IMG/VR virus record: IMGVR_UViG_3300025450_000020 | Coordinates: 1 to 64,000 of that record | Length of the DNA: 64,000 nucleotides | Source: a virus | Reading direction: 5' to 3' (one strand) | In this document: in pieces, positions 254-19,269 of the stretch | Layout of the letters: each line of letters starts with the position of its first letter | Position numbering within the stretch: the stretch's first letter is position 1 | The notes under the pieces: generated by a model | What the model was told of the DNA's origin: nothing | The model's database searches: none | The model's input: only the letters and a program-made list of their open reading frames with translations | Position numbers and translations under genes: made by a program

Positions 254-361
254 TTATTTGCTACCTTCTTTCTTTGTTGCTTGTAGTATAACAGACACCG
301 CTGACAGCGTTTCTTTTTGGCGGGTGGCTAGGACATACGCCTTATATTCTTCTAGGTTCAC
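254..361 (-). CDS. small hypothetical protein MNLEEYKAYVLATRQKETLSAVSVILQATKKEGSK (35 aa, GTG start; not in ORF track)
   Basis: Translated by hand; AGAAGGT upstream, promoter at 391-412, stop abuts the next gene. Confidence 0.6.
   Translation of the reverse strand: MNLEEYKAYVLATRQKETLSAVSVILQATKKEGSK
285..306 (-). promoter_or_regulatory. early-type promoter TGTCAG-N10-TATACT (copy 1)
   Basis: Minus strand TGTCAG CGGTGTCTGT TATACT; one of six copies with identical spacing. Confidence 0.7.
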
Positions 362-390
362 TTTGTGACCTTCTTTCTCTTGATACCCCT

Positions 391-412
391 AGTATAACAG
401 AACGTACTGACA
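391..412 (-). promoter_or_regulatory. early-type promoter TGTCAG-N10-TATACT (copy 2)
   Basis: Minus strand TGTCAG TACGTTCTGT TATACT. Confidence 0.75.
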
Positions 413-461
413 TTATTCTACTTACCCACGAGTAATTTCATATTGTGAGACGCTCAAATAA

Positions 462-477
462 TGTGATAAAAATCATA
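462..477. promoter_or_regulatory. CRP/GlxR-like box TGTGA-N6-TCATA
   Basis: 1 mismatch to TGTGA-N6-TCACA; intergenic; same offset from its promoter as the box at 2159. Confidence 0.5.
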
Positions 478-550
478 CCGTAAACGACACGCCCGAGTGC
501 GGGTCGGCCCGCATCTGATAGTTGAACTTTCAATTATTTATTATGGATCA

Positions 551-579
551 TGAGCAGTTTTAATTCTTGCTCAGGAATT
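551..579 (-). ncRNA. putative H-type RNA pseudoknot, copy 1
   Basis: AAUUC C UGAGCA A GAAUU AAAAC UGCUCA; stem 1 covaries with copy 2. Confidence 0.65.
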
Positions 580-583
580 TTAT

Positions 584-766
584 TTAATTGTGATTTACAG
601 TTTTAAAACATTCGTCCCAGAATCTATCTGAGTCAAATCTTTCGTTATCTTCTGCAAACATTTCTGCGAAATCATTTACCAAATCCTCAAATACTTCCAA
701 ACGCATTTCAGAACCATAAGAGTTTAGAATTTCTGCAGTTGCTACGTAGTCTTTACGTGTCATCAT
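584..766 (-). CDS. small acidic hypothetical protein (MMTRKDY family, paralog of 2238-2432)
   Basis: ORF track; AGGAG SD; clear paralogy. Confidence 0.8.
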   Translation of the reverse strand: MMTRKDYVATAEILNSYGSEMRLEVFEDLVNDFAEMFAEDNERFDSDRFWDECFKTVNHN

Positions 767-831
767 TTTTGATTTACTCTCCTTTTATTAGTAGGGCGGG
801 ACTACTAGAGCCCCGCCTAAAAATTATAGCA

Positions 832-1002
832 TTACTTTGAGGTTTTTACCATAGCGAAACGATATGAACCATTTGCAAGAACCAAACCTACACGAGTTAG
901 CTTTGAGTTAATTGGTGTGAAATCACGGATTCGTCCTGTGACACCTGTCTTGCTAGTTGTGAACAAATCTCCGATTTGATATGTGTATCCGTTGAGTGAC
1001 AT
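832..1002 (-). CDS. small beta-rich protein MSLNGYTYQIGDLFTTSKTGVTGRI... (56 aa; not in ORF track)
   Basis: Translated by hand; AAGGA SD; paralog of 1085-1246. Confidence 0.8.
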   Translation of the reverse strand: MSLNGYTYQIGDLFTTSKTGVTGRIRDFTPINSKLTRVGLVLANGSYRFAMVKTSK

Positions 1003-1036
1003 TAGTTTTCCTTTTCTTTTTTTCTTGTTGGGTTGT

Positions 1037-1065
1037 TGAGCAGTTTTACAACTTGCTCAGGTTGT
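1037..1065 (-). ncRNA. putative H-type RNA pseudoknot, copy 2
   Basis: ACAAC C UGAGCA A GUUGU AAAAC UGCUCA. Confidence 0.65.
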
Positions 1066-1084
1066 CTAGGGTATTTCCCTAAAC

Positions 1085-1246
1085 TTAGAAAGTAACGGTT
1101 GTGAAGCGTTCCTCGCCATTGACATCAAGAAGAACAAGAGTCGTGTTAGCGTCCTTTGGCTCTATTGCCTTGATTACGCCTGTGACCTTTGACTTCTGAG
1201 TGGTGAACAAATCGCCTACCTGATAAGTCTTGTTTGCTACTGTCAT
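1085..1246 (-). CDS. small beta-rich protein MTVANKTYQVGDLFTTQKSKVTGVI... (53 aa; not in ORF track)
   Basis: Translated by hand; AAGGA SD; promoter at 1284-1305; paralog of 832-1002. Confidence 0.8.
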   Translation of the reverse strand: MTVANKTYQVGDLFTTQKSKVTGVIKAIEPKDANTTLVLLDVNGEERFTTVTF

Positions 1247-1283
1247 GTTTCTTTTCCTTTTCTTGTTAGTTGGTTATGTCCCT

Positions 1284-1305
1284 AGTATAGCACTAGGGTC
1301 TGACA
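1284..1305 (-). promoter_or_regulatory. early-type promoter TGTCAG-N10-TATACT (copy 3)
   Basis: Minus strand TGTCAG ACCCTAGTGC TATACT. Confidence 0.75.
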
Positions 1306-1310
1306 TTGGT

Positions 1311-1517
1311 TTATGGGTGATAAACCAAAACTGTGCCTTTGCGGGCTACTTTGAGCCTTTGGTGTCTCATGCCCTTAAATGGATTAGCTGCATGAGTCTT
1401 TGATAGTTTAATTGTATGGACATGATAAACCCGTGCTTGGGCGGGACTTGTGATAATCAGGAGAAGAATTACCACTAGAGCGAATAGCATTTTTTTCATT
1501 AGTCTAAGTGCTTCCAT
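1311..1517 (-). CDS. small membrane/secreted protein (signal-peptide-like N-terminus, basic C-terminus)
   Basis: MKKMLFALVVILLLIITSPAQA resembles a Sec signal peptide. Confidence 0.6.
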   Translation of the reverse strand: MEALRLMKKMLFALVVILLLIITSPAQARVYHVHTIKLSKTHAANPFKGMRHQRLKVARKGTVLVYHP

Positions 1518-1534
1518 TTCTTATTGTTTAGGTA

Positions 1535-1556
1535 ATTATACACGAAGGCGCTGACA
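1535..1556 (-). promoter_or_regulatory. early-type promoter TGTCAG-N10-TATAAT (copy 4)
   Basis: Minus strand TGTCAG CGCCTTCGTG TATAAT. Confidence 0.7.
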
Positions 1557-1584
1557 AGCAGTGCTAGCATTATGAGAGTTTTCA

Positions 1585-1776
1585 TTAGATACACTCCACA
1601 CAGTAGCACTTAGGATTTACAGCGAATAACCATTTAATGATAATCGCACGATATAAGTTAGATAAACCATAAGCAGATTTTACTCCGCCATTATTGTATT
1701 CATGAATAATACGATTTTCTAATGCACCCGAAAGTCCGAGTTCAGCGAATATGTTTATTGTTTCTAGTGTAGTCAT
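1585..1776 (-). CDS. hypothetical protein with C-terminal CxCxxC
   Basis: ORF track; ATG at 1776 chosen for the AAAGGTGG SD. Confidence 0.65.
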   Translation of the reverse strand: MTTLETINIFAELGLSGALENRIIHEYNNGGVKSAYGLSNLYRAIIIKWLFAVNPKCYCVECI

Positions 1777-1810
1777 TTTGACCACCTTTCTTTAGTTTCT
1801 AATACTGAGT

Positions 1811-1839
1811 ATTCTAGCAGGTTGTTTGGGAAAAATCAA
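1811..1839 (-). promoter_or_regulatory. sigma70/SigA-type promoter TTGATT-N17-TAGAAT with extended -10
   Basis: Seen directly; GACAC (1843-1847) and a CRP-like box (1861-1876) lie upstream. Confidence 0.65.
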
Positions 1840-1871
1840 GGTGACACGCCGTTGTGTCTGTGTGTTTTATA

Positions 1872-2057
1872 TCACACTGAGAATTTGTGTAAATCACCAC
1901 AATTCGGGCAACCATACTCAATTTCATCACCTTCATTAAACTCTTGGTCTACATTGACATAAACGCCACAAGTTGTGCATTTATCCCATTCCATATAAAA
2001 CTCGTTTGGACAATTTTCGTGGCTTGTGCAACCACCCTTGATAATTAGTGAATTCAT
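1872..2057 (-). CDS. small zinc-ribbon protein (CxxC...CxxC)
   Basis: CTTC and CPNC motifs; AAAGGA SD. Confidence 0.65.
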   Translation of the reverse strand: MNSLIIKGGCTSHENCPNEFYMEWDKCTTCGVYVNVDQEFNEGDEIEYGCPNCGDLHKFSV

Positions 2058-2087
2058 TTGGAATTCCTTTCTTTTGTTTATACGAGT

Positions 2088-2109
2088 ATTATAGCAGGGG
2101 GGTCTGACA
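2088..2109 (-). promoter_or_regulatory. early-type promoter TGTCAG-N10-TATAAT (copy 5)
   Basis: Minus strand TGTCAG ACCCCCCTGC TATAAT. Confidence 0.75.
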
Positions 2110-2158
2110 TTACCCGCCAGTATATGTGTACAAATCGGACACGTAAAAAAACTATTTT

Positions 2159-2174
2159 TGTGAGCTTCGTCACA
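2159..2174. promoter_or_regulatory. perfect CRP/GlxR-like box TGTGA-GCTTCG-TCACA
   Basis: Exact match to the CRP-family consensus; intergenic. Confidence 0.55.
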
Positions 2175-2237
2175 CAGTATGCGACACGCCCGAGCGGGTC
2201 GGCCTTGGATCGGTGGGTCGGCCCAACAGCGGAGAAA

Positions 2238-2432
2238 TTAATCTCCGAAACACGCATCCCAAAATTTATTTTCATCAAAGTTAGGATTATCTTTTGCAAA
2301 CATTTTAATAAAAGGTTGAACCAACGAATCATCAAACTCTGCAACGAATGACGGGCGGGATTCAGAATTATATTCTGTCAAATATGAATTAAGAATCTTA
2401 GCGATAGAAACATAGTCTTTACGAGTCATCAT
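2238..2432 (-). CDS. small hypothetical protein (MMTRKDY family, paralog of 584-766)
   Basis: Shared MMTRKDYV..A.ILNSY and F..DN..FD...FWD.CF. Confidence 0.8.
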   Translation of the reverse strand: MMTRKDYVSIAKILNSYLTEYNSESRPSFVAEFDDSLVQPFIKMFAKDNPNFDENKFWDACFGD

Positions 2433-2436
2433 TTAT

Positions 2437-2538
2437 TTATTTCCAATCTTTAAAAATATCTTCAACAACTGTTAGTTGTTCATCGGTTAAGTGGTCTAGT
2501 TGTATCGCATCAGCGAAACCAAAAATATCTTTTTCCAT
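2437..2538 (-). CDS. tiny acidic protein MEKDIFGFADAIQLDHLTDEQLTVVEDIFKDWK (33 aa)
   Basis: Translated by hand; GAGGTG SD; tightly packed operon. Confidence 0.65.
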   Translation of the reverse strand: MEKDIFGFADAIQLDHLTDEQLTVVEDIFKDWK

Positions 2539-2539
2539 A

Positions 2540-2683
2540 TTACAACACCTCATCAGGGTCAAAGTGTGCAACGGGGATAAAGACATCTTCCATATCCTCA
2601 GAAGCCAATTCATCTAGCATAGATTGGTAATCGTCTGCTAGTTCAGACCAACGGTCATTAGTTTTATCAAATGAGTATGACAT
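2540..2683 (-). CDS. tiny, very acidic protein MSYSFDKTNDRWSELADDY... (47 aa)
   Basis: Translated by hand; AAAGGTGG SD; TAATG coupling to the upstream gene. Confidence 0.65.
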   Translation of the reverse strand: MSYSFDKTNDRWSELADDYQSMLDELASEDMEDVFIPVAHFDPDEVL

Positions 2684-2844
2684 TATTCTGCCACCTTTCC
2701 TGTGCAGTAGATACCTGAATCAGTAGCCATCCATGTAGATAGCGGGCTACCTCGCCAATAGCGGATAGTCTTGCCACACGAGCAGGTTGTAGACTCTTTA
2801 ACATTGTAGCCTGATTGGGCTGGGAAGTGTAGTTTCATTTTCAT
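2683..2844 (-). CDS. small protein with H/CxC/C residues, possibly Zn-binding (53 aa)
   Basis: Translated by hand (MKMKLHFPAQSG...TCSCGK...YCTGK); AAAGGA SD. Confidence 0.6.
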   Translation of the reverse strand: MKMKLHFPAQSGYNVKESTTCSCGKTIRYWRGSPLSTWMATDSGIYCTGKVAE

Positions 2845-2901
2845 TTAGTTATCCTTTCAAGATACTTTCGTTTGATTGGGTTTCTCCCTTTCAATAAGAT
2901 A

Positions 2902-2930
2902 AATATAACAGAGGGGTCTGACATTTTCAA
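2902..2930 (-). promoter_or_regulatory. promoter TTGAAA-N17-TATATT containing TGTCAG in the spacer (copy 6)
   Basis: Minus strand TTGAAA A TGTCAG ACCCCTCTGT TATATT. Confidence 0.7.
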
Positions 2931-11988: not shown

Positions 11989-14900
11989 ATGAGCCTGCAA
12001 TACACCTATACTAGTAATCTTCAGACTACTCAGGGCGGTAATTTTAACTACCCTGCCTATACAGACACGCCTGACGTGCCTAGAGATATTTATCGTTTAG
12101 CAACAGAGCTTGACGCATATCTTTCTGTTAATAAAGGTCCAGGATATTTAGTATTTTCTAGCTCATCAAATACATTTTCAACAGGTTCAAAAACTTTTTC
12201 AGTTATCATAGGATCGGGCAATCCAAATGGTAGCGGAGCTTATGCAGCAGGTGATCGTGTAAGAATAATCAATACGGCAAATACATCTCAATTTATAGAA
12301 GGAACAATTTCTTCTGTAACAACAAATTCAAGTATAGTAGTAAGCATTGATACGGTCCAAGGCTCAGGAACGATTACAACGTGGCAATTTAGCCTTACTG
12401 GTATACAAGGATTGCAGGGTCCACAAGGACCACAAGGCACACAAGGTGTGCAAGGCCCACAAGGTGTTCAGGGTCCACAAGGTACTCAGGGTGTACAAGG
12501 TCCGCAAGGCACACAAGGTGTGCAAGGCACTCAAGGGCCTCAAGGCACCCAGGGTATTCAAGGCGTTCAGGGTCCACAGGGAACACAAGGCGTACAAGGC
12601 ACACAGGGTGTGCAAGGAACTCAAGGAACACAAGGAGTCCAAGGTTCAGGTTACAATGTAACAACTTCAACAACTTCAAACACACTCACCACTGGTTCAA
12701 AAACATTTACTGTTACAAACTCTGGTGCATTTTTAAATGGTGATCGTGTAAGAGTAATTAATACATCAAGTCCTTCACAGTTTATTGAAGGTAATATTAC
12801 TTCTTTAACTGTAAACTCAAGTATTACAATTAACGCAGACATAGTTTCTGGAACTGGAACTGTAACAACATGGCAATTTAGCGTTGCTGGAGTTCAAGGT
12901 ACACAAGGTGTCCAGGGTCCACAAGGAACCCAAGGTGTACAAGGTATTCAAGGCTTGCAAGGTATTCAGGGTACACAAGGAACACAAGGTGTGCAAGGCA
13001 CACAGGGAATACAAGGATCTCAAGGACCACAAGGTACCCAAGGAATCCAGGGTATTCAGGGAATACAAGGACCTCAAGGAACGCAGGGAACACAAGGCAT
13101 TCAAGGTCTTCAAGGTGTTCAGGGACCAGTATCTTCATTAAATGCACACCAATCTGTAGAAGCAATCCAGGTGTCACCCCTAGGAAACGGTGCAACATAT
13201 TTTGCGGGATCTGCAGATGCAGAAAACGGAACTGGTGTGGGTGCATATATTCAAGCATCAACAAATGGAACTTTATCTGTAGATGGATATACTACTCCAA
13301 ATCTTGCAGTAGGAGATCGCCTATTAATTGTAGGTCAGGCAAATAAAACTCAAAATGGTGTCTATACAGTTACATCAATTGGATCTGTATCTTCAACATG
13401 GAAGATAACTCGTGCAACAGATTACGATAATCATACGGTTGGACAAGTTGAAGAAGGCGACTATATTTTTGTAACTGATGGAACAGTTTATGGCGGTACA
13501 GTCTGGATAGAAGTTGGAAATGGTTCTAATGCTGACGGAACCATTAGAATTGGCACAGATAATATTCAGTTTGCACAAACATCTGGCTTGGGTGCTCAGG
13601 GAACAACTGGCGCACAAGGTGCGGGTGGAACAACGGCATACTGGGGTTCATTCTGGGATGTAACAAATCAAACAGCGGCAGCAACAAATACCGCATATGC
13701 CGTAAATATTGGTAATACAGATTCAAATTCACTTGGTGTATCAATAGCAAGTAACAATCAAATAACATTTGCAAACCCTGGCGTATACAATATTCAATTT
13801 TCTTTTCAATTCCAAAATACTGATAACTCAGTACATAATGCATATATTTGGTTACGTAAAAATGGTTCAGATGTTGCAGAAACTGCATCTGATCAAGCAA
13901 TTCCAGCAAGTCACGCTGGAACAACAGGATCAACAATTGCTGCATGGAACTTTGTAGAAAAAATAAATGCTGGAGATTATCTACAGCTTATGTGGTCTAC
14001 AGATAATACTTCTGTATCTATTGCAAGTTATAATGCTTCTTCCCCAGTCCCGTCCGTTCCTGGCGTAATTGTTACTGCAACACAGGTTGCATATGCAATT
14101 CAAGGCACACAGGGTTTACAAGGTCCACAAGGTGTACAGGGTCCACAAGGTGTACAGGGTGTGCAAGGAACACAGGGTGTTCAAGGAGTACAAGGCGTAC
14201 AGGGTATACAAGGAAATCAGGGAACACAAGGAATACAAGGTTTTGGATATGCACAGCTTCAAGGTGTGCAAGGATCAATAGGTTCGCAAGGTACTGCAGG
14301 ATTTGTAGGGTCTAATGGATCTCAAGGAACCCAAGGTATCCAAGGAAGCACAGGATTCCAAGGAACTGCTGGCTTTATAGGCTCTAATGGTGCACAAGGC
14401 GTGCAGGGACTTCAAGGAATTATTGGAGCATCTGGAACATATACAGTGTCATCAACAATTCCTTCAAACCCTACAAATGGTTCAGCTTGGTTAAATACTA
14501 ATGATGGATCGCTTTATATCTGGGATGGAACTGAATGGTTTGAGCCAGGTAGCAATTATAATGGTTTGCAGGGAATTCAAGGAACTACTGGTATACAAGG
14601 ACCGCAGGGAACATTAACATTAACTCCCGCCCGTACTGTAACAGAATTTGCATCTCCAACATCAGGACAAACTTCATTCTCAGTAAACTATACACCAGGA
14701 TATATAGATGTATTCTTAAATGGTGTTCGTCTTGCATCATCAGACTATACTGCAACAAGTGGAACTGCTGTAGTTCTTGCTTATGGAGTAAGTTCAACAG
14801 ATGTTCTTGATGTTGTATCTTATTCGCTTGGAATGGGTGCACAAGGATTAAGTGGTTTACAAGGTGTTCAAGGTTTACAAGGAATTTCAGTTCAAGGAAT

Positions 14901-15387
14901 TCAAGGACCACAAGGAACTACTGGAATTCAAGGTTTGACGGGAGTTCAGGGAACCTCAGGTGCTGGATCAATGCAAATGTGGCGTTATACAGCTACAGGT
15001 GGAGAAACAACGTTATCAGGAAATGACGGATTCTCAACAAGCCTTGCATATACAGTAAATTACGAGCAAGTATTTGTAAATGGTGTTTTGCTAGAGCGTG
15101 GAGTTGACTATACAGCAAGTACAGGAACATCTGTAGTTTTGAACACAGCCCTAGTCGCTAATGATATTGCTACGGTTATATCATATAGTTCATGGTCTCT
15201 TGCAAATGCTATTCCGCTTACCGCATATAGTGCACAAGGAGTTTTGGTTGCAGGTACAGGAACCAATACATACACATCTCTACAACAAGGAACAAAAGGA
15301 TGGACTTTGGTTTCTGACCCAACGCAAGCGGCGGGAGTCCGTTGGTCTAACGACGTTCAAATCATGAACATCATGGGTGCCTATTAA
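11989..15387 (+). CDS. collagen-like fibre/appendage protein (G-X-Q repeats with several globular domains)
   Basis: Multiple QGxQGx blocks; duplicated TGSKTF..GDRVR domain; fibre motif GDRLL..GQ....NGVY...RATD; two VF.NGV.L...DYTA domains. Confidence 0.85.
12400..12645 (+). repeat. collagen-like 9-nt (CAA/CAG GGN NNN) tandem repeats
   Basis: Further blocks at about 12890-13125, 14100-14420, 14560-14610, 14840-14955 and 21475-21610. Confidence 0.9.
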
Positions 15388-16471: not shown

Positions 16472-17842
16472 ATGACAACTAATACTATGGTGGCGATTCA
16501 GACAATTACTGCATCATCTCAATCAGCAGTTTCGTTTACCTCAATTCCTTCCACTTACACCGACCTTCATATTGTTGCGGTAGGCACCAGCAGTACTGCT
16601 GGTTCTTCTGTCAACTATTGGCGTATGACTTTCAATGGCGATAGTAGTAGTGGGTTGTATTCAGATACTTATTTATACGGAAATGGTTCGTCTGCTGCGT
16701 CTAGCCGCGATACTGGCGGCAATTTTATGTACCTTGGCTATGTTGGACAAACATCTAATACGGCTCAACCTATTAGCACTTTTGACATTATGAACTATGC
16801 CAACAGCACGACATATAAAACTGTTCTTGCTCGTGGAAGTGCCGCATCAGACAATGTTGGCGCAATGGTCGGACTTTGGCGAAATACAAACGCTATCAAC
16901 CGCGTAGATTTGTTTATGTCTAGTGCAACAGTTAGCGGAACCTTTACCCTTTACGGTATAGCTAACGCTGACATTGGCGCTTACGCTACTGGTGGAATTA
17001 TTACCCAAGATTCTACTTATTACTATCACGCGTTTGGTAGCTCAGGCACATTCACTCCTTCCCGCAATTTGACGGCTGATATTTTGGTTGTTGCAGGTGG
17101 TGGTGCAGGTGGAGCAGCTGCAGCTGCTGGTGGAGGAGGTGCTGGTGGCATATGGATGGCTAGTTCACAATCTTTATCAAGTGGAACTAACTATACCTGC
17201 ACCGTGGGTGCAGGCGGGGCTGGCGCAAGTAATACTGTAGGTGGAAATGGAGGCAATTCAACCTTCGGAGCTATTTCTGGAACTATATATGGTGGTGGTG
17301 GCGGCGCAGGCCAAAGTGTTGTTGCATCTTCTGGAGGTTCTGGTGGTGGAGCAGCCTATACAAATCCTTCTTCTGTAGGTTCTGGAACATCAGGACAAGG
17401 AAATGCTGGAGGCACTGGGCATAATTTTAGTCTTGGCGCAGGCGGCGGCGGCGGAGGCGGCGCAGGTGGTGTAGGACAAAACTCTGCAACTAATGACCCA
17501 GGACCAGCTGGAGCTGGAGGCGTAGGCGCTGGAGGTACATCATGGTCATACACAGGCATTGCAAACCCATACCTATATCTTGATGCAATGGGAGCTGCAA
17601 CTTCTACAGGTCAAATTTATTCTGGCCATTACTACTACGCAGGCGGCGGTGGTGGCGGAGTTGATCAAGCTGGATCAGATATTCCTGGCTCCGCTGGTAT
17701 AGGCGGCGGCGCAGCTGGAAGTAACGCTGCTGGAATTGCTGCAACCCAGTTTACAGGTGGCGGCGGCGGAGGCGGCGGTCATCAGGTGGGATCAGGCGGT
17801 AATGGCGGTTCAGGAATAGTAATTGTGAGGTATGCAAAATGA
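16472..17842 (+). CDS. glycine-rich virion protein, class B copy 1
   Basis: IP.TYTDL N-domain + ATGG..YH.F + VVAGGG Gly-rich domain ending GSGIVIVRY. Confidence 0.85.
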   Translation: MTTNTMVAIQTITASSQSAVSFTSIPSTYTDLHIVAVGTSSTAGSSVNYWRMTFNGDSSSGLYSDTYLYGNGSSAASSRDTGGNFMYLGYVGQTSNTAQPISTFDIMNYANSTTYKTVLARGSAASDNVGAMVGLWRNTNAINRVDLFMSSATVSGTFTLYGIANADIGAYATGGIITQDSTYYYHAFGSSGTFTPSRNLTADILVVAGGGAGGAAAAAGGGGAGGIWMASSQSLSSGTNYTCTVGAGGAGASNTVGGNGGNSTFGAISGTIYGGGGGAGQSVVASSGGSGGGAAYTNPSSVGSGTSGQGNAGGTGHNFSLGAGGGGGGGAGGVGQNSATNDPGPAGAGGVGAGGTSWSYTGIANPYLYLDAMGAATSTGQIYSGHYYYAGGGGGGVDQAGSDIPGSAGIGGGAAGSNAAGIAATQFTGGGGGGGGHQVGSGGNGGSGIVIVRYAK

Positions 17843-19269
17843 CAACAGCGGGTAATTATGTTTTGTTAGAAAGAGTGACAGTAGGAGCTGCTGGCGCATC
17901 TAGCGTCACCTTCAACAACATACCTCAGACTGGTTATACGGATTTGAAAATCGTATTATCCGCTCGCTCTACCGCTAATGGTGGACAAAATGTTAACCTT
18001 AATTTTAATGGCATAACTTCGGGATATAGCGATAAAATTTTAGGTGGAACTGGTTCGGCTGCATCTTCTTTTCCTTCTGGAAATACCACCAAAGGCGGTT
18101 CTTGCGTAATTCCTGGAGCCGATTTTACTCTCAACACTTTTGGCAATGGTGAAATTTATATTCCTAATGCTTTTGGAAATACGGCAAAAAGTTATTCTTC
18201 TGACTCGGTAAGCGAAAATAATGCAACTCTTTCGTATGCCCAAATGCAAGCAACCTTATGGAGCTATACAGGCAATCCAGCCATTACAAGTATTTTAATT
18301 ACTTTATCAAGCGGTAACTTTGCCCAATACTCCACCTTCTCTCTCTACGCCCTAGCCGCAGTAGGCACTACTCCTACTAAAGCTCCGAAGGCATCAGGTG
18401 GAGATATTGTTCAATATGACGGTACATATTGGTATCATGCATTTATTAATTCGGGAAGTTTTATTCCACAGATCCCGCTTTCTTGTGATGTGCTAGTCGT
18501 TGCTGGTGGTGGTTCGGGTGGCGCTGGAACTGGTGGCGGTGGTGGAGCTGGTGGTTTGCGTTTATTAGCTAGCCAAGGTTTTGCACCAAATACTGCTTAC
18601 ACTTGCACGACTGGCGCTGGCGCTGCTTCTGTTACTGGAAGCGCACACGGTAATAATGGAACTAACTCCAGCCTTATTGGAGGTTCTATTTCTATCAGCG
18701 CAACTGGTGGTGGCGGTGGAGCTGCCGAAAATACGAACAACGCTCAAACAGGTGGTTCTGGTGGTGGCGGAAGCTACAACGGTTACAACGGAGCTGCTGG
18801 TAACGCTGGTTCATATTCGCCAGTTGAAGGTTATGCAGGTGGTGTTGCTTCCGCAACCTACAACGGCTCTGGTGGTGGTGGAGCTGGTGGAACTGGTTTT
18901 GCATCAACAACATCAGGCTCTACTGGAGTTGGTGGTGTGGGCGGTGTAGGTGCTGGCGGAACTTCATACACTAATTACGCAATTCTTGATGCTATGGGCG
19001 CGGCTACTACAACTGGCGTACTTTCGTCATCTCACTATTACTATGCAGGTGGCGGCGGTGGTGGTGGACAGTATTCAACTTCGCCATATACAGGACAAGG
19101 TGGAGCTGGCGGAACTGGTGGTGGCGGAACTGGCGGTGCTTACAATCCAGCAACCGCAGGAACCTCAGCACTTGCCAATACAGGCGGTGGCGGTGGCGGA
19201 GGCGGAACAAACTCAAACACCTCTGGAGCTGGCGGTTCAGGTGTAGTTATAGTACGCTATCTAGCTTAA
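17839..19269 (+). CDS. glycine-rich virion protein, class C copy 1
   Basis: TFGNGEIYIPN...DSV.EN N-domain + Gly-rich domain. Confidence 0.85.
   Translation: MTTAGNYVLLERVTVGAAGASSVTFNNIPQTGYTDLKIVLSARSTANGGQNVNLNFNGITSGYSDKILGGTGSAASSFPSGNTTKGGSCVIPGADFTLNTFGNGEIYIPNAFGNTAKSYSSDSVSENNATLSYAQMQATLWSYTGNPAITSILITLSSGNFAQYSTFSLYALAAVGTTPTKAPKASGGDIVQYDGTYWYHAFINSGSFIPQIPLSCDVLVVAGGGSGGAGTGGGGGAGGLRLLASQGFAPNTAYTCTTGAGAASVTGSAHGNNGTNSSLIGGSISISATGGGGGAAENTNNAQTGGSGGGGSYNGYNGAAGNAGSYSPVEGYAGGVASATYNGSGGGGAGGTGFASTTSGSTGVGGVGGVGAGGTSYTNYAILDAMGAATTTGVLSSSHYYYAGGGGGGGQYSTSPYTGQGGAGGTGGGGTGGAYNPATAGTSALANTGGGGGGGGTNSNTSGAGGSGVVIVRYLA

What the first reader, a model, noticed from the sequence alone, without database searches (positions are those of the whole stretch)
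551..1065. Two copies of a compact H-type RNA pseudoknot with compensatory base changes in the early-type operon
SEEN (minus strand): copy 1 (579-551) is AAUUC-C-UGAGCA-A-GAAUU-AAAAC-UGCUCA. Copy 2 (1065-1037) is ACAAC-C-UGAGCA-A-GUUGU-AAAAC-UGCUCA. Stem 2 and all loops are identical, while three of five stem-1 pairs change on both sides and keep Watson-Crick pairing. Both copies lie just 3' of a stop codon. KNOWN: the 5-bp S1 / 1-nt L1 / 6-bp S2 / A-rich L3 geometry matches classical compact pseudoknots such as the T-even gene 32 operator and frameshift pseudoknots, and type III antitoxin RNAs (ToxI) are also small pseudoknots. INFERENCE: an unannotated cis RNA element or processed small RNA, such as an exonuclease block, a protein-binding/antitermination site, or a decoy for a host RNA-sensing defence.
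Basis: partly seen in the sequence, partly recalled or inferred. Interest (0 to 1): 0.75.

Follow-up and report, generated by a model that had tools for sequence, protein, structure and literature searches.

The report
Gene-end RNA pseudoknot family in phages
The two look-alike stretches are real copies of a tiny knotted RNA fold that hundreds of unrelated phages and some bacteria place a few bases after a gene's stop codon; it is in no RNA catalogue, shares its core with a plant-virus RNA that stops RNA-degrading enzymes and ribosomes, and probably acts as a roadblock between genes, though this is untested.

Summary
Observation confirmed and extended. They belong to a very large family. No Rfam family matches.

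Both stems covary. S1 pairs 3-5 are formed in essentially all copies, with dozens of different sequences. All 27 of 27 changes at internal S2 pairs keep pairing, in hits from a model that did not treat S2 as paired.

The element is anchored to stop codons. Among 534 copies, none starts 2-5 nt after the first base of the stop, 6 start at 6 nt and 93 at 7 nt.

Its core (C-G closing pair, one-C loop 1, AAAC-U at the same spacing) matches the plant-virus coremin / xrRNA-C pseudoknot. It lacks coremin's second hairpin.

Best reading: a cis-acting mechanical roadblock that insulates gene segments on phage messages (confidence 0.45). Function is untested. Earlier sessions of this scan noted the same family in at least seven other genomes.

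The parts
551..579 (-). Pseudoknot copy 1 (29 nt). S1a 579-575, L1 C574, S2a 573-568, junction A567, S1b 566-562, L3 AAAAC 561-557, S2b 556-551.
   Evidence: Sequence read. Covariance model R1 scores it 50 bits, E 7e-10. It starts 7 nt after the first base of the TAA at 586-584.
1037..1065 (-). Pseudoknot copy 2 (29 nt). S1a 1065-1061, L1 C1060, S2a 1059-1054, junction A1053, S1b 1052-1048, L3 AAAAC 1047-1043, S2b 1042-1037.
   Evidence: 50 bits. Orthologous copies in L063/L106 carry ATATC/GATAT in place of ACAAC/GTTGT at the same position; L094 keeps ACAAC/GTTGT.
584..766 (-). Upstream 60-aa ORF whose stop codon (586-584) anchors copy 1. It is a paralogue of ORF 2238..2432.
   Evidence: ORF list and translations.
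1085..1246 (-). Upstream 53-aa ORF (stop 1087-1085) preceding copy 2. It is a paralogue of the downstream ORF 832..1002.
1064..1084 (-). Extra hairpin between the stop codon and copy 2 (GUUUAGGG-AAAUA-CCCUAGAC). Its last two bases overlap the weak outer S1 positions.
   Evidence: MFE fold -20.9 kcal/mol, z = -4.9. The hairpin is conserved in L063, L094 and L106.
832..1002 (-). Next gene after copy 2. Its ATG lies 34 nt after the motif end, with an SD-like AAAGGAAAA in between, so the motif is intercistronic here.

Best explanation
The element is a cis-acting RNA made as part of the phage messenger. It folds into a compact H-type pseudoknot:
- S1: 3-5 bp, closed by an almost invariant C-G pair.
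- L1: a single C.
- S2: 6 bp.
- L3: N-AAA-C.

It sits just beyond the reach of the ribosome terminating on the upstream gene, so it stays folded while that gene is translated.

Its core resembles the coremin/xrRNA-C pseudoknot, which has been shown to stop the 5'-3' exonuclease Xrn1, stop scanning ribosomes and resist the elongating ribosome. By that analogy it most likely acts as a mechanical roadblock at gene boundaries. It would halt processive machines travelling along the RNA: an RNase J-type 5'-3' exonuclease, RNase E scanning, stray or read-through ribosomes, and possibly 3'-5' exonucleases coming from a downstream cut. The segments of a polycistronic phage message, or a downstream tRNA or structured RNA, would then have independent fates.

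Shown here: the fold (by covariation), the family size, the anchoring to stop codons, the intercistronic position, and the sequence and spacing match to coremin.

Inferred: that it blocks anything, which enzyme it blocks, and in which direction.
For: Fold:
- S1 covariation score is 0.318 against 0.078 in shuffles (0 of 500 reach it), and 0.025-0.059 with partners slid.
- S1 was left free in every retrieval pattern. Pairs 3 and 4 form in 49/50 and 50/50 copies, 93/93 and 93/93, and 88/89 and 89/89.
- For S2, 27 of 27 changes at the four internal pairs keep pairing, among 59 diverged hits of a model that treated S2 as plain sequence.
- A structure-only descriptor finds 325 hits against 7 in shuffled DNA. 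It recovers compensated S2 types such as TGGACA/TGTCCA, TAGGCA/TGCCTA and TGGCTA/TGGCCA.
- The single-side S2 changes give G.U on this strand. They would be A.C mismatches on the other strand, so the RNA is sense to the flanking genes.

Placement:
- In 534 non-redundant copies, the distance from the stop's first base to motif base 1 is 0 copies at 2-5 nt, 6 at 6 nt, then 93, 54, 35, 31 and 24 at 7-11 nt. The edge appeared in the first 296 copies and again in 238 independently retrieved copies.
- Only 9 of 296 lie inside a long sense ORF.
- Of 296 copies, the next ORF starts within 50 nt in 104, a tRNA within 20 nt in 50, and a terminator-like hairpin follows in 12.
- In a gut-phage subgroup the motif abuts Rfam DUF2800 RNA with no gap.
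- Upstream genes are diverse.

Coremin match:
- Coremin has a sequence-specific C-G closing pair, stem pairs rescued by compensatory swaps, a loop starting with Y and ending A-D, and essential A16, A17, C18, U19 (PMC6546385 Results).
- The coremin 20-mer is printed in PMC10520033 Methods. Many phage copies share its 11-mer GACGUUAAACU.
- Coremin is modelled as an H-type pseudoknot with a 1-nt L1 and has a natural Watson-Crick subtype. It stimulates -1 frameshifting (PMC10321173 sections 14-15 and abstract).
- It blocks scanning ribosomes (PMC10520033 abstract).
Against: - No experiment or RNA-end data exist for any phage copy.
- Coremin needs a second hairpin (hp2) for Xrn1 resistance. The phage motif has none: 123 of 525 copies have a hairpin right after it, against 155 at a control position and 135 in shuffled sequence.
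- The stems are often AU-rich and weak. The S2 hairpin of copy 1 folds at only -7.5 kcal/mol. A brute-force block is therefore not obvious.
- About a dozen near-invariant bases would suit a specific binding site equally well.
- The direction of protection (upstream or downstream RNA) is unresolved.
- The tight spacing to stop codons could partly reflect genome compaction rather than function.
- The resemblance to coremin could be convergent, and the bacterial enzymes differ from Xrn1.
- Much of the invariance I report at columns 6, 7, 12, 23 and 24 was imposed by my own search patterns. Only one search left L1 free, and it found C in 322 of 325.
Confidence: 0.45

Rival explanations
1. The main target is the ribosome, not a nuclease. 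A knot wedged at the mRNA entrance of the terminating ribosome would prevent read-through or post-termination sliding and re-initiation. This would uncouple translation of neighbouring genes and keep ribosomes off a downstream tRNA or structured RNA.
For: - There is a hard 7-nt edge, and the most common distance sits right at that edge.
- As recalled knowledge, position +11 from the P site is where the ribosomal helicase meets mRNA structure.
- Coremin blocks scanning ribosomes and stimulates frameshifting.
- The motif lies directly in front of tRNAs and DUF2800 RNA.
- In 12 of 534 copies the motif's own UGA serves as the stop codon.
Against: - About 40% of copies lie 12 nt or more from the stop, so contact with the ribosome is not obligatory.
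- Any spacer would keep ribosomes off a downstream RNA.
- There is no experimental data.
- This reading overlaps with the best explanation and does not exclude it.
Confidence: 0.2
2. It is a tRNA-acceptor mimic cut by RNase P (or RNase Z), acting as 'punctuation' for polycistronic RNA. U7 would be the -1 base, G8-C28 the first pair, A29 the discriminator, followed by CCA.
For: - CCA is the most common trinucleotide after the motif: 28 of 183 copies, and 16 of 32 tRNA-adjacent copies.
- Bacterial RNase P cleaves a small pseudoknot in loop 1 if a 3' RCCA is present, and prefers U at -1 (PMC12710915 abstract).
- One copy sits between two tRNAs like a member of the array (L052).
Against: - The CCA signal is not general. 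In the TGGACA set, +1 is C in 41 of 93 and T in 39 of 93, and +2 is T in 48 of 93.
- Most CCA cases come from one clade with a conserved DUF932-motif-tRNA-Asp locus.
- Avoidance of G at +1 (2/183, 2/93, 0/89) is explained more simply: a G there would pair with C6 and abolish loop 1.
Confidence: 0.07
3. It is a specific binding site for a small molecule (a riboswitch-like aptamer of preQ1-I size and topology), or for a host or phage protein. This includes acting as a decoy against an RNA-sensing defence.
For: - About a dozen near-invariant bases cluster at the helix junction and in L3.
- The size and H-type topology resemble the smallest riboswitch aptamers (recalled).
- The wide host range would fit a universal ligand or factor.
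Against: - The motif sits after stop codons, with no consistent downstream gene.
- No SD sequence is sequestered. The SD starts 5-25 nt downstream in most of the 91 copies that have a recognisable SD and start.
- There is no Rfam riboswitch hit even at E up to 10.
- Phages of very different kinds carry it, so a shared phage protein is unlikely. I did not test this directly.
Confidence: 0.1
4. It is a very small self-cleaving ribozyme.
For: - It has a conserved core plus covarying helices.
- Its distribution across phages and bacteria is patchy and multi-copy, and it lies next to tRNAs. These traits are shared with hammerhead, twister and pistol ribozymes (recalled).
Against: - At 29 nt with two plain helices and 1-nt linkers, it leaves no evident catalytic pocket.
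- No known ribozyme family matches.
- The near-identical coremin core has been studied extensively in vitro with no cleavage mentioned in the parts I read.
Confidence: 0.05
5. It acts at the DNA level, for example as a promoter part, a recombination hot-spot for shuffling gene cassettes, or a protein-binding site, and the RNA fold is incidental.
For: - Some copies overlap promoter-like hexamers: TTGAC[AT] within 14 nt upstream in 19 of 238, and TAnAAT within 16 nt upstream in 10 of 238.
- In the window's clade the TGTCAG promoter box often follows about 8 nt downstream.
- A 29-nt conserved block could mediate recombination.
Against: - Interleaved inverted repeats with compensatory changes in both make sense only for a folded single strand.
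- G.U pairs are tolerated but A.C pairs are not, which is strand-specific.
- The orientation follows the flanking genes, and the stop-codon spacing rule is a translation-level feature.
Confidence: 0.03

Closest known systems
Coremin motif / xrRNA-C of beny-, cucumo- and other RNA viruses, including its Watson-Crick subtype xrRNA-WCC (PMC6546385, PMC10520033, PMC10321173)
   Same: - Short S1 hairpin whose pairs covary or can be swapped.
- A sequence-specific C-G closing pair (phage C5-G14, coremin C4-G9).
- A single pyrimidine as loop 1 (phage C6, coremin C5).
- The loop ends in A followed by a non-pairing base (phage A12-H13, coremin A7-A8).
- AAA-C-U lies exactly 5 nt after the closing G (phage A20-U24, coremin A15-U19). 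These bases are essential in coremin and invariant here.
- Loop bases pair with the bases after AAA to give an H-type pseudoknot.
- Many phage copies contain the identical 11-mer GACGUUAAACU.
   Different: - S2 is 6 Watson-Crick pairs here, against 3 in coremin (non-canonical in the BNYVV type).
- The loop is 8 nt (C-U-R-N-N-Y-A-H), against YGAD or YGNNAD.
- There is no hp2 equivalent.
- The hosts are DNA phages and bacteria, not eukaryotic RNA viruses.
- It is placed right after stop codons between genes rather than mainly in 3' UTRs.
- The relevant nucleases would be bacterial, and no function has been tested.
Recoding pseudoknots (-1 frameshift stimulators; MuLV-type read-through pseudoknots)
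   Same: Compact H-type pseudoknot with an A-rich loop over S1. It is placed a few nucleotides downstream of the codon in the ribosomal A site.
   Different: - No slippery heptamers precede it (1 of 234 against 2.4 expected).
- It is not inside ORFs (9 of 296).
- There is no conserved open frame beyond the stop, and the distances show no 3-nt periodicity.
Intercistronic mRNA stabilisers and processing sites of phages and bacteria (T7 RNase III sites, REP or hairpin 3' stabilisers) and the MALAT1 triple helix next to an RNase P-cut tRNA-like RNA.
   Same: A structured element between cistrons, or just upstream of an RNase P cleavage site, that could leave a protected RNA end.
   Different: Those are plain hairpins or a long U-A.U triplex, and each is specific to one lineage. 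This is a 29-nt pseudoknot with a conserved core shared across phages of many phyla.
preQ1-I riboswitch aptamer and its engineered use as a 3' protective knot on pegRNAs (recalled; only a search listing was seen)
   Same: About 30 nt, H-type, with a 5-bp P1 and an A-rich 3' loop lying in the P1 groove.
   Different: No Rfam preQ1 match at E up to 10. There is no ligand pocket (1-nt L1 and 1-nt junction), it is not upstream of queuosine genes, and no SD is sequestered.

Membership tests
Coremin / xrRNA-C | hp1: a 3-4 bp stem whose pairs can be exchanged, with a sequence-specific C-G loop-closing pair | tested here: met
   C5-G14 in 50 of 50 and 529 of 534 copies, with a G-C swap in 5. S1 pairs 3 and 4 covary. 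Coremin requirement taken from PMC6546385 Results.
Coremin / xrRNA-C | Loop 1 consensus YGAD (4 nt) or YGNNAD (6 nt) | tested here: inconclusive
   The phage loop is 8 nt, C-U-R-N-N-Y-A-H. It starts with Y and ends in A plus a non-G base, but its second base is U and the middle bases pair with the 3' arm. The paper reports that 7-8-nt loops can still work in the BNYVV context.
Coremin / xrRNA-C | Conserved spacer with essential A16, A17, C18, U19, A20 at a fixed distance from hp1 | tested here: met
   AAA-C-U is invariant and starts 5 nt after the closing G, as in coremin. Caveat: my patterns fixed AAAC. The base equivalent to A20 is G or A and pairs with column 11. L3 insertions occur, but AAAC is kept.
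Coremin / xrRNA-C | A second hairpin (hp2) directly downstream, required for Xrn1 resistance | tested here: not met
   A hairpin with a stem of at least 4 bp starting 0-4 nt after the motif occurs in 123 of 525 copies, against 155 at a position 60 nt further on and 135 in shuffled sequence.
Coremin / xrRNA-C | Stalls a 5'-3' exoribonuclease, scanning ribosomes, or stimulates frameshifting | not testable with these tools
   Needs enzyme and translation assays.
Any Rfam 15 family | Match at the gathering score | tested here: not met
   0 matches in the 64-kb window. At E up to 10 over 400-1200 there were only 4 chance-level hits, with E from 3.9 to 9.5.
-1 PRF stimulatory pseudoknot | In-frame slippery heptamer 5-9 nt upstream, with the element inside overlapping ORFs | tested here: not met
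   1 of 234 ORFs against about 2.4 expected. 9 of 296 copies lie inside a long sense ORF.
Type III antitoxin RNA (ToxI-like) | Tandem array of repeats next to a toxin endoribonuclease gene | tested here: not met
   The two window copies are 486 nt apart with a gene between them. Copies elsewhere are dispersed singles. I did not search for a neighbouring toxin gene.
Intrinsic (Rho-independent) terminator | GC-rich hairpin directly followed by a U tract, at the end of a transcription unit | tested here: not met
   The next ORF starts within 50 nt in 104 of 296 copies and a tRNA follows within 20 nt in 50 of 296. The S2 stem is 6 bp with an 11-nt loop, and no U tract directly follows either window copy.
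T-even gene 32 translational operator pseudoknot | Sits in the 5' leader of the ssDNA-binding protein gene that it regulates | tested here: not met
   Flanking genes are diverse. Only one copy seen (Synechococcus phage S-EIVl) precedes an annotated ssDNA-binding protein gene.

The most novel reading that the evidence does not exclude
This is the first exoribonuclease- and ribosome-resistant RNA class of the prokaryotic world. A roughly 29-nt knot, whose core is shared with the coremin xrRNA of eukaryotic RNA viruses, would be used by DNA phages of most bacterial phyla (and by some bacteria and Microviridae) to cut long messages into independently stable segments. That would make the fold an enzyme-agnostic mechanical roadblock spanning bacterial and eukaryotic viruses. 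It would also explain the exact 7-nt stand-off from stop codons as the footprint of the terminating ribosome.
Probability: 0.35. Interest if true: 0.9.

Novelty: new variant of a known kind. Interest (0 to 1): 0.8.

Why it matters
- **Scale.** Phage messages are long and polycistronic, and how individual genes get different RNA lifetimes is poorly understood outside a few model phages. A single 29-nt module, reused after hundreds of unrelated genes in phages of actinobacteria, cyanobacteria, firmicutes, proteobacteria and candidate-phyla bacteria, would be a general answer.
- **Link to xrRNAs.** If it blocks bacterial nucleases or ribosomes, it connects phage biology to the xrRNA field. It would provide the smallest natural roadblock RNA and a compact stabilising or insulating part for synthetic operons and RNA tools.
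- **Measurement.** The sharp 7-nt rule gives an in-genome readout of how far a terminating bacterial ribosome reaches along its message.
- **Annotation.** The motif is absent from Rfam. Adding a model would mark gene ends in thousands of uncultured phage genomes.

Tried and rejected
- **Known RNA family.** Rfam at gathering score over the window gave nothing. At E up to 10 there were only chance hits to two CRISPR repeat models, a snoRNA and a frameshift element. I rejected a CRISPR-repeat mimic because S1 varies freely while the loop pairs downstream.
- **DNA similarity of the window's left end to isolated phages.** None in near or distant mode.
- **tRNA-Asp specificity.** This turned out to be a clade effect. 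41 of 121 upstream genes are DUF932. In the independently retrieved set only 8 of 238 copies precede a tRNA, of seven types.
- **RNase P / CCA mimic.** The CCA enrichment did not replicate in the other S2 sets.
- **tRNA D-stem mimic.** I considered that S2 (GAGC/GCUC) mimics a tRNA D-stem and dropped the idea once S2 proved to covary.
- **Frameshifting.** No slippery sites.
- **hp2 equivalent.** Absent.
- **Terminator.** Only 12 of 296 copies are followed by a terminator-like hairpin.
- **Gene-specific cis-regulator.** Upstream genes are diverse.
- **Tiny-ORF variant.** No Pfam or NCBIfam family, apart from one sub-threshold Pfam hit (zf-ChsH2, E 0.0064, below its cut-off). Neighbours are diverse.
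- **Literature.** The searches were: literal sequence strings; pseudoknot/phage/tRNA-Asp; exoribonuclease-resistant plus phage; H-type pseudoknot/intergenic/stop codon; stabiliser/PNPase; Patience RNA-seq; DUF2800; coremin plus phage/RNase J. None of them listed a paper describing this element in phages or bacteria.
- **What I could not see.** The supplementary tables of PMC10690425 (10,006 candidate viral RNAs) and of the paper that defined DUF2800 RNA could hold this motif.
- **Host pattern.** All cultured-phage hits are from hosts that (recalled) have RNase J. I did not test the correlation statistically, and BLAST with 36-40-nt queries is insensitive.
Full report
**What is in the window.**

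The layout is five bases, C, TGAGCA, A, five bases complementary to the first five, AAAAC, TGCTCA. With the two five-base arms left free, the pattern occurs twice in the window against 0.06 expected; 0 of 100 shuffles gave two matches. These are the only copies in the 82-kb virus record from which the window comes.

The record is an IMG/VR contig estimated 77% complete. Its portal protein is about 54% identical to those of the roughly 130-kb Streptomyces phages Wakanda and Mildred21, so an actinobacterial host is plausible but not shown.

Copy 1 starts 7 nt after the first base of the TAA of a 60-aa ORF. Copy 2 starts 22 nt after the TAA of a 53-aa ORF. It is separated from that stop by a stable hairpin and lies 34 nt before the ATG of the next gene.

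**It is a very large family.**

- Scans with two other S2 sequences stopped at 120 and 118 contigs.
- A scan of one genome per prokaryotic species stopped at 118 contigs from many phyla, including a complete Saccharibacteria chromosome.
- Verified copies occur in cultured phages:
  - Mycobacterium phage Labelle;
  - Paracoccus phage ParMal1 and Nostoc phage NMeng1, both Autographiviridae;
  - cyanophages S-RIM4 and S-EIVl;
  - Moorella phage MTATph1.

  They also occur in gut Heliusvirales phages and a Microviridae genome from pig faeces.
- No Rfam family matches.
- Eight literature searches listed no description of it in phages or bacteria.

**The pseudoknot is real.**

S1 was unconstrained in all retrieval patterns.

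- In 50 distinct copies, pairs 3, 4 and 5 form in 49, 50 and 50. Pair 2 forms in 38 and pair 1 in 21.
- The covariation score is 0.318 against 0.078 for shuffles (0 of 500 reach it), and 0.025-0.059 with partners slid.
- This replicated in the two other sets: 93/93 and 93/93, then 88/89 and 89/89, for pairs 3 and 4. Those sets had 34 and 41 distinct S1 sequences.

S2 was fixed by my first pattern, so I tested it in three other ways.

- A covariance model that treated S2 as plain sequence found about 90 diverged copies in the same loci. Among 59 distinct ones, all 27 changes at the four internal pairs keep pairing. Four are double changes and 23 are single changes giving G.U. Only the two terminal pairs are sometimes open.
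- A structure-only descriptor gave 325 hits against 7 in shuffled DNA, with C at loop 1 in 322. It revealed compensated S2 types.
- Those S2 types each proved to be abundant in IMG/VR.

The single changes give G.U but never A.C, so the folded strand is the sense strand of the flanking genes.

The flanks show negative design. G is almost absent at +1 (2/183, 2/93, 0/89). A G there would pair with C6 and delete loop 1 (my inference).

Covariation cannot tell a simultaneous pseudoknot from two alternative hairpins. However, the fixed 1-nt loop 1 over a 6-bp S2 is the classical minimal geometry for a pseudoknot (recalled rule).

**Where it sits.**

For 534 non-redundant copies I measured the distance from the first base of the nearest upstream same-strand ORF stop to motif base 1.

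| Distance (nt) | Copies |
|---|---|
| 0 | 1 |
| 1 | 2 |
| 2-5 | 0 |
| 6 | 6 |
| 7 | 93 |
| 8 | 54 |
| 9 | 35 |
| 10 | 31 |
| 11 | 24 |

Beyond 11 nt there is a decaying tail. In 12 further copies the motif's own UGA is the stop.

- The edge was seen in the first 296 copies and again in 238 copies retrieved with other S2 sequences.
- The 4-nt spacer has no sequence signal beyond being G-poor.
- The ORF calling was crude (ORFs of at least 40 aa).
- Seven nucleotides from the A-site codon corresponds to about +11 from the P site, where the ribosomal helicase meets structure (recalled, not checked). The motif therefore seems placed as close as possible to the stop without being unwound by the terminating ribosome.

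Downstream the spacing is looser.

- Among the first 296 copies, the next ORF starts within 50 nt in 104, a tRNA lies within 20 nt in 50, and a terminator-like hairpin follows in only 12.
- Where an SD and start codon are recognisable (91 copies), the SD begins mostly 5-25 nt after the motif.
- In a gut-phage subgroup the motif abuts the 5' end of Rfam DUF2800 RNA with no gap (7 of 7 loci tested, one truncated).
- Upstream genes are diverse. The only recurrent one, DUF932 (41 of 121), marks one clade's DUF932-motif-tRNA-Asp locus.

The element is therefore a generic intercistronic module attached to the end of whatever gene precedes it.

**Closest known thing.**

Earlier notes of this scan reported the same family in at least seven other genomes and pointed to the coremin motif (xrRNA-C). 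I treated this as a lead and read the papers.

- From PMC6546385 (Results) and PMC10520033 (abstract and passages):
  - coremin is a 3-4-bp hairpin whose pairs can be swapped;
  - the C-G closing pair is sequence-specific;
  - the loop consensus is YGAD or YGNNAD;
  - in the spacer, A16, A17, C18, U19 and A20 are each essential;
  - a second hairpin (hp2) is needed to stall Xrn1;
  - the motif also blocks scanning ribosomes.
- From PMC10321173 (abstract and sections 14-15):
  - coremin is modelled as an H-type pseudoknot, with loop nucleotides 6-8 pairing with 18-20 and nucleotide 5 as loop 1;
  - a Watson-Crick subtype exists;
  - it stimulates -1 frameshifting;
  - in the Watson-Crick subtype, hp2 is dispensable for frameshifting.

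The phage consensus maps onto this base for base.

| Phage | Coremin |
|---|---|
| C5-G14 | C4-G9 |
| C6 | C5 |
| A12-U24 | A7-U19 |
| H13 opposite C23 | A8 opposite C18 |
| A20-A22 | A15-A17 |

The 5-nt distance from the closing G to AAA is the same. Many copies contain the identical 11-mer GACGUUAAACU.

The differences are a 6-bp Watson-Crick S2, an 8-nt loop, and no hp2. A hairpin follows the motif in 123 of 525 copies, against 155 and 135 in the two controls. The hosts are also prokaryotic. I therefore do not file it as a coremin member. I read it as a new prokaryotic variant of the same core fold.

**How it most likely works.**

- *Shown:* the fold, the abundance, the anchoring to stop codons, the intercistronic position and the coremin-like core.
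- *Inferred:* like coremin, the knot resists being pulled apart from its 5' side. It would stop processive machines at gene boundaries: RNase J-type exonuclease, RNase E scanning, and read-through or sliding ribosomes. It might also protect the upstream message when RNase P or another endonuclease cuts just downstream, since tRNA 5' ends lie 1-12 nt after 37 of 115 copies.

I put 0.45 on this roadblock and insulator reading, with the direction open. Rivals are listed with their tests.
- A primarily ribosome-directed role: 0.2.
- A binding site or decoy: 0.1.
- An RNase P mimic: 0.07. The CCA signal did not generalise.
- A ribozyme: 0.05.
- A DNA-level role: 0.03.
- Programmed frameshifting is effectively excluded.

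**Weak points.**

- There is no functional data.
- The stems are weak in AT-rich phages.
- Several 'invariant' columns were fixed by my own patterns.
- The resemblance to coremin may be convergent.

**Verdict.**

The element is a new, very widespread variant of a known kind of RNA (a coremin-like pseudoknot). It is uncatalogued and directly testable in cultured phage-host pairs.

Noticed in passing
Bacterial loci, e.g. L145:7520-7579(-), L151:2139-2198(-), L176:1149-1208(+), L155:6385-6444(+), L190:5897-5965(+): A conserved tiny ORF of about 20 aa (M-K-R-F/Y-x-I/V-P-R-x-A-H-C-x-E/D-G-C-x-x-x-S, and a variant M-R-W-M-F-P-H-A-T-H-C-S-x-C-G-S) with its own SD. Its UGA stop is the motif's own UGA, so the ribosome must open the knot to terminate. 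It occurs in 17 loci from deltaproteobacterial, Aminicenantes, actinobacterial and Anaerolineae MAGs, and is often followed by a terminator. No Pfam or NCBIfam family reaches its cut-off, and neighbours are diverse (merA-like reductase, GATase, PNP, DUF6125, DUF3097).
   Followed up: partly
L004:285-445, L059:7694-7854, L148:5432-5592, L161:5051-5208(-), L194:912-1071, L197:1598-1754(-): In gut Firmicutes phages and prophages the pseudoknot ends exactly where Rfam DUF2800 RNA (RF02960, 140-160 bits) begins. The known motif may therefore have an unrecognised 5' pseudoknot module.
   Followed up: partly
window 485-510 (-) and 2182-2203 (-); also about 1841-1850 (-): A second recurrent box, GGCCGACCCGC(A)CTCGGGCGTGTCG, follows copy 1 and the paralogous gene at 2238..2432. 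Relatives of it (GGCCCGGCGTGTCGTCCACA and similar) follow the pseudoknot in many related contigs. Function unknown; it could be a terminator-like hairpin or an operator.
   Followed up: no
window 285-2923 (-); related loci: Promoters with a TGTCAG box 10 nt upstream of an extended -10 precede the small early genes. In related phages the TGTCAG box often lies about 8 nt after the pseudoknot.
   Followed up: partly
window 584..766 / 2238..2432 and 832..1002 / 1085..1246 (all -): Two pairs of paralogous small early genes (MMTRKDYV... and M..N..Y.(V/I)GDLFTT...). Copy 2 sits between the members of one pair.
   Followed up: no
Viral loci such as L010:79-1119, L020:2717-3763, L009:10185-11282: A conserved DUF932 gene - pseudoknot - tRNA-Asp(GUC) arrangement in one clade of roughly 100-kb freshwater phages (41 of 121 upstream genes). 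The tRNA starts 3-12 nt after the knot.
   Followed up: partly
L483 (Microviridae sp. MG945738.1, about 1063-1091) and L482 (Synechococcus phage S-EIVl): The motif also occurs in a 4.7-kb ssDNA Microviridae genome, directly before an SD and ATG. In S-EIVl it sits directly before the annotated ssDNA-binding protein gene.
   Followed up: no
window 11989..15387 (+), 16472..19269 (+): A 1132-aa protein with collagen triple-helix repeats and two adjacent glycine-rich-domain proteins, probably tail fibres.
   Followed up: no
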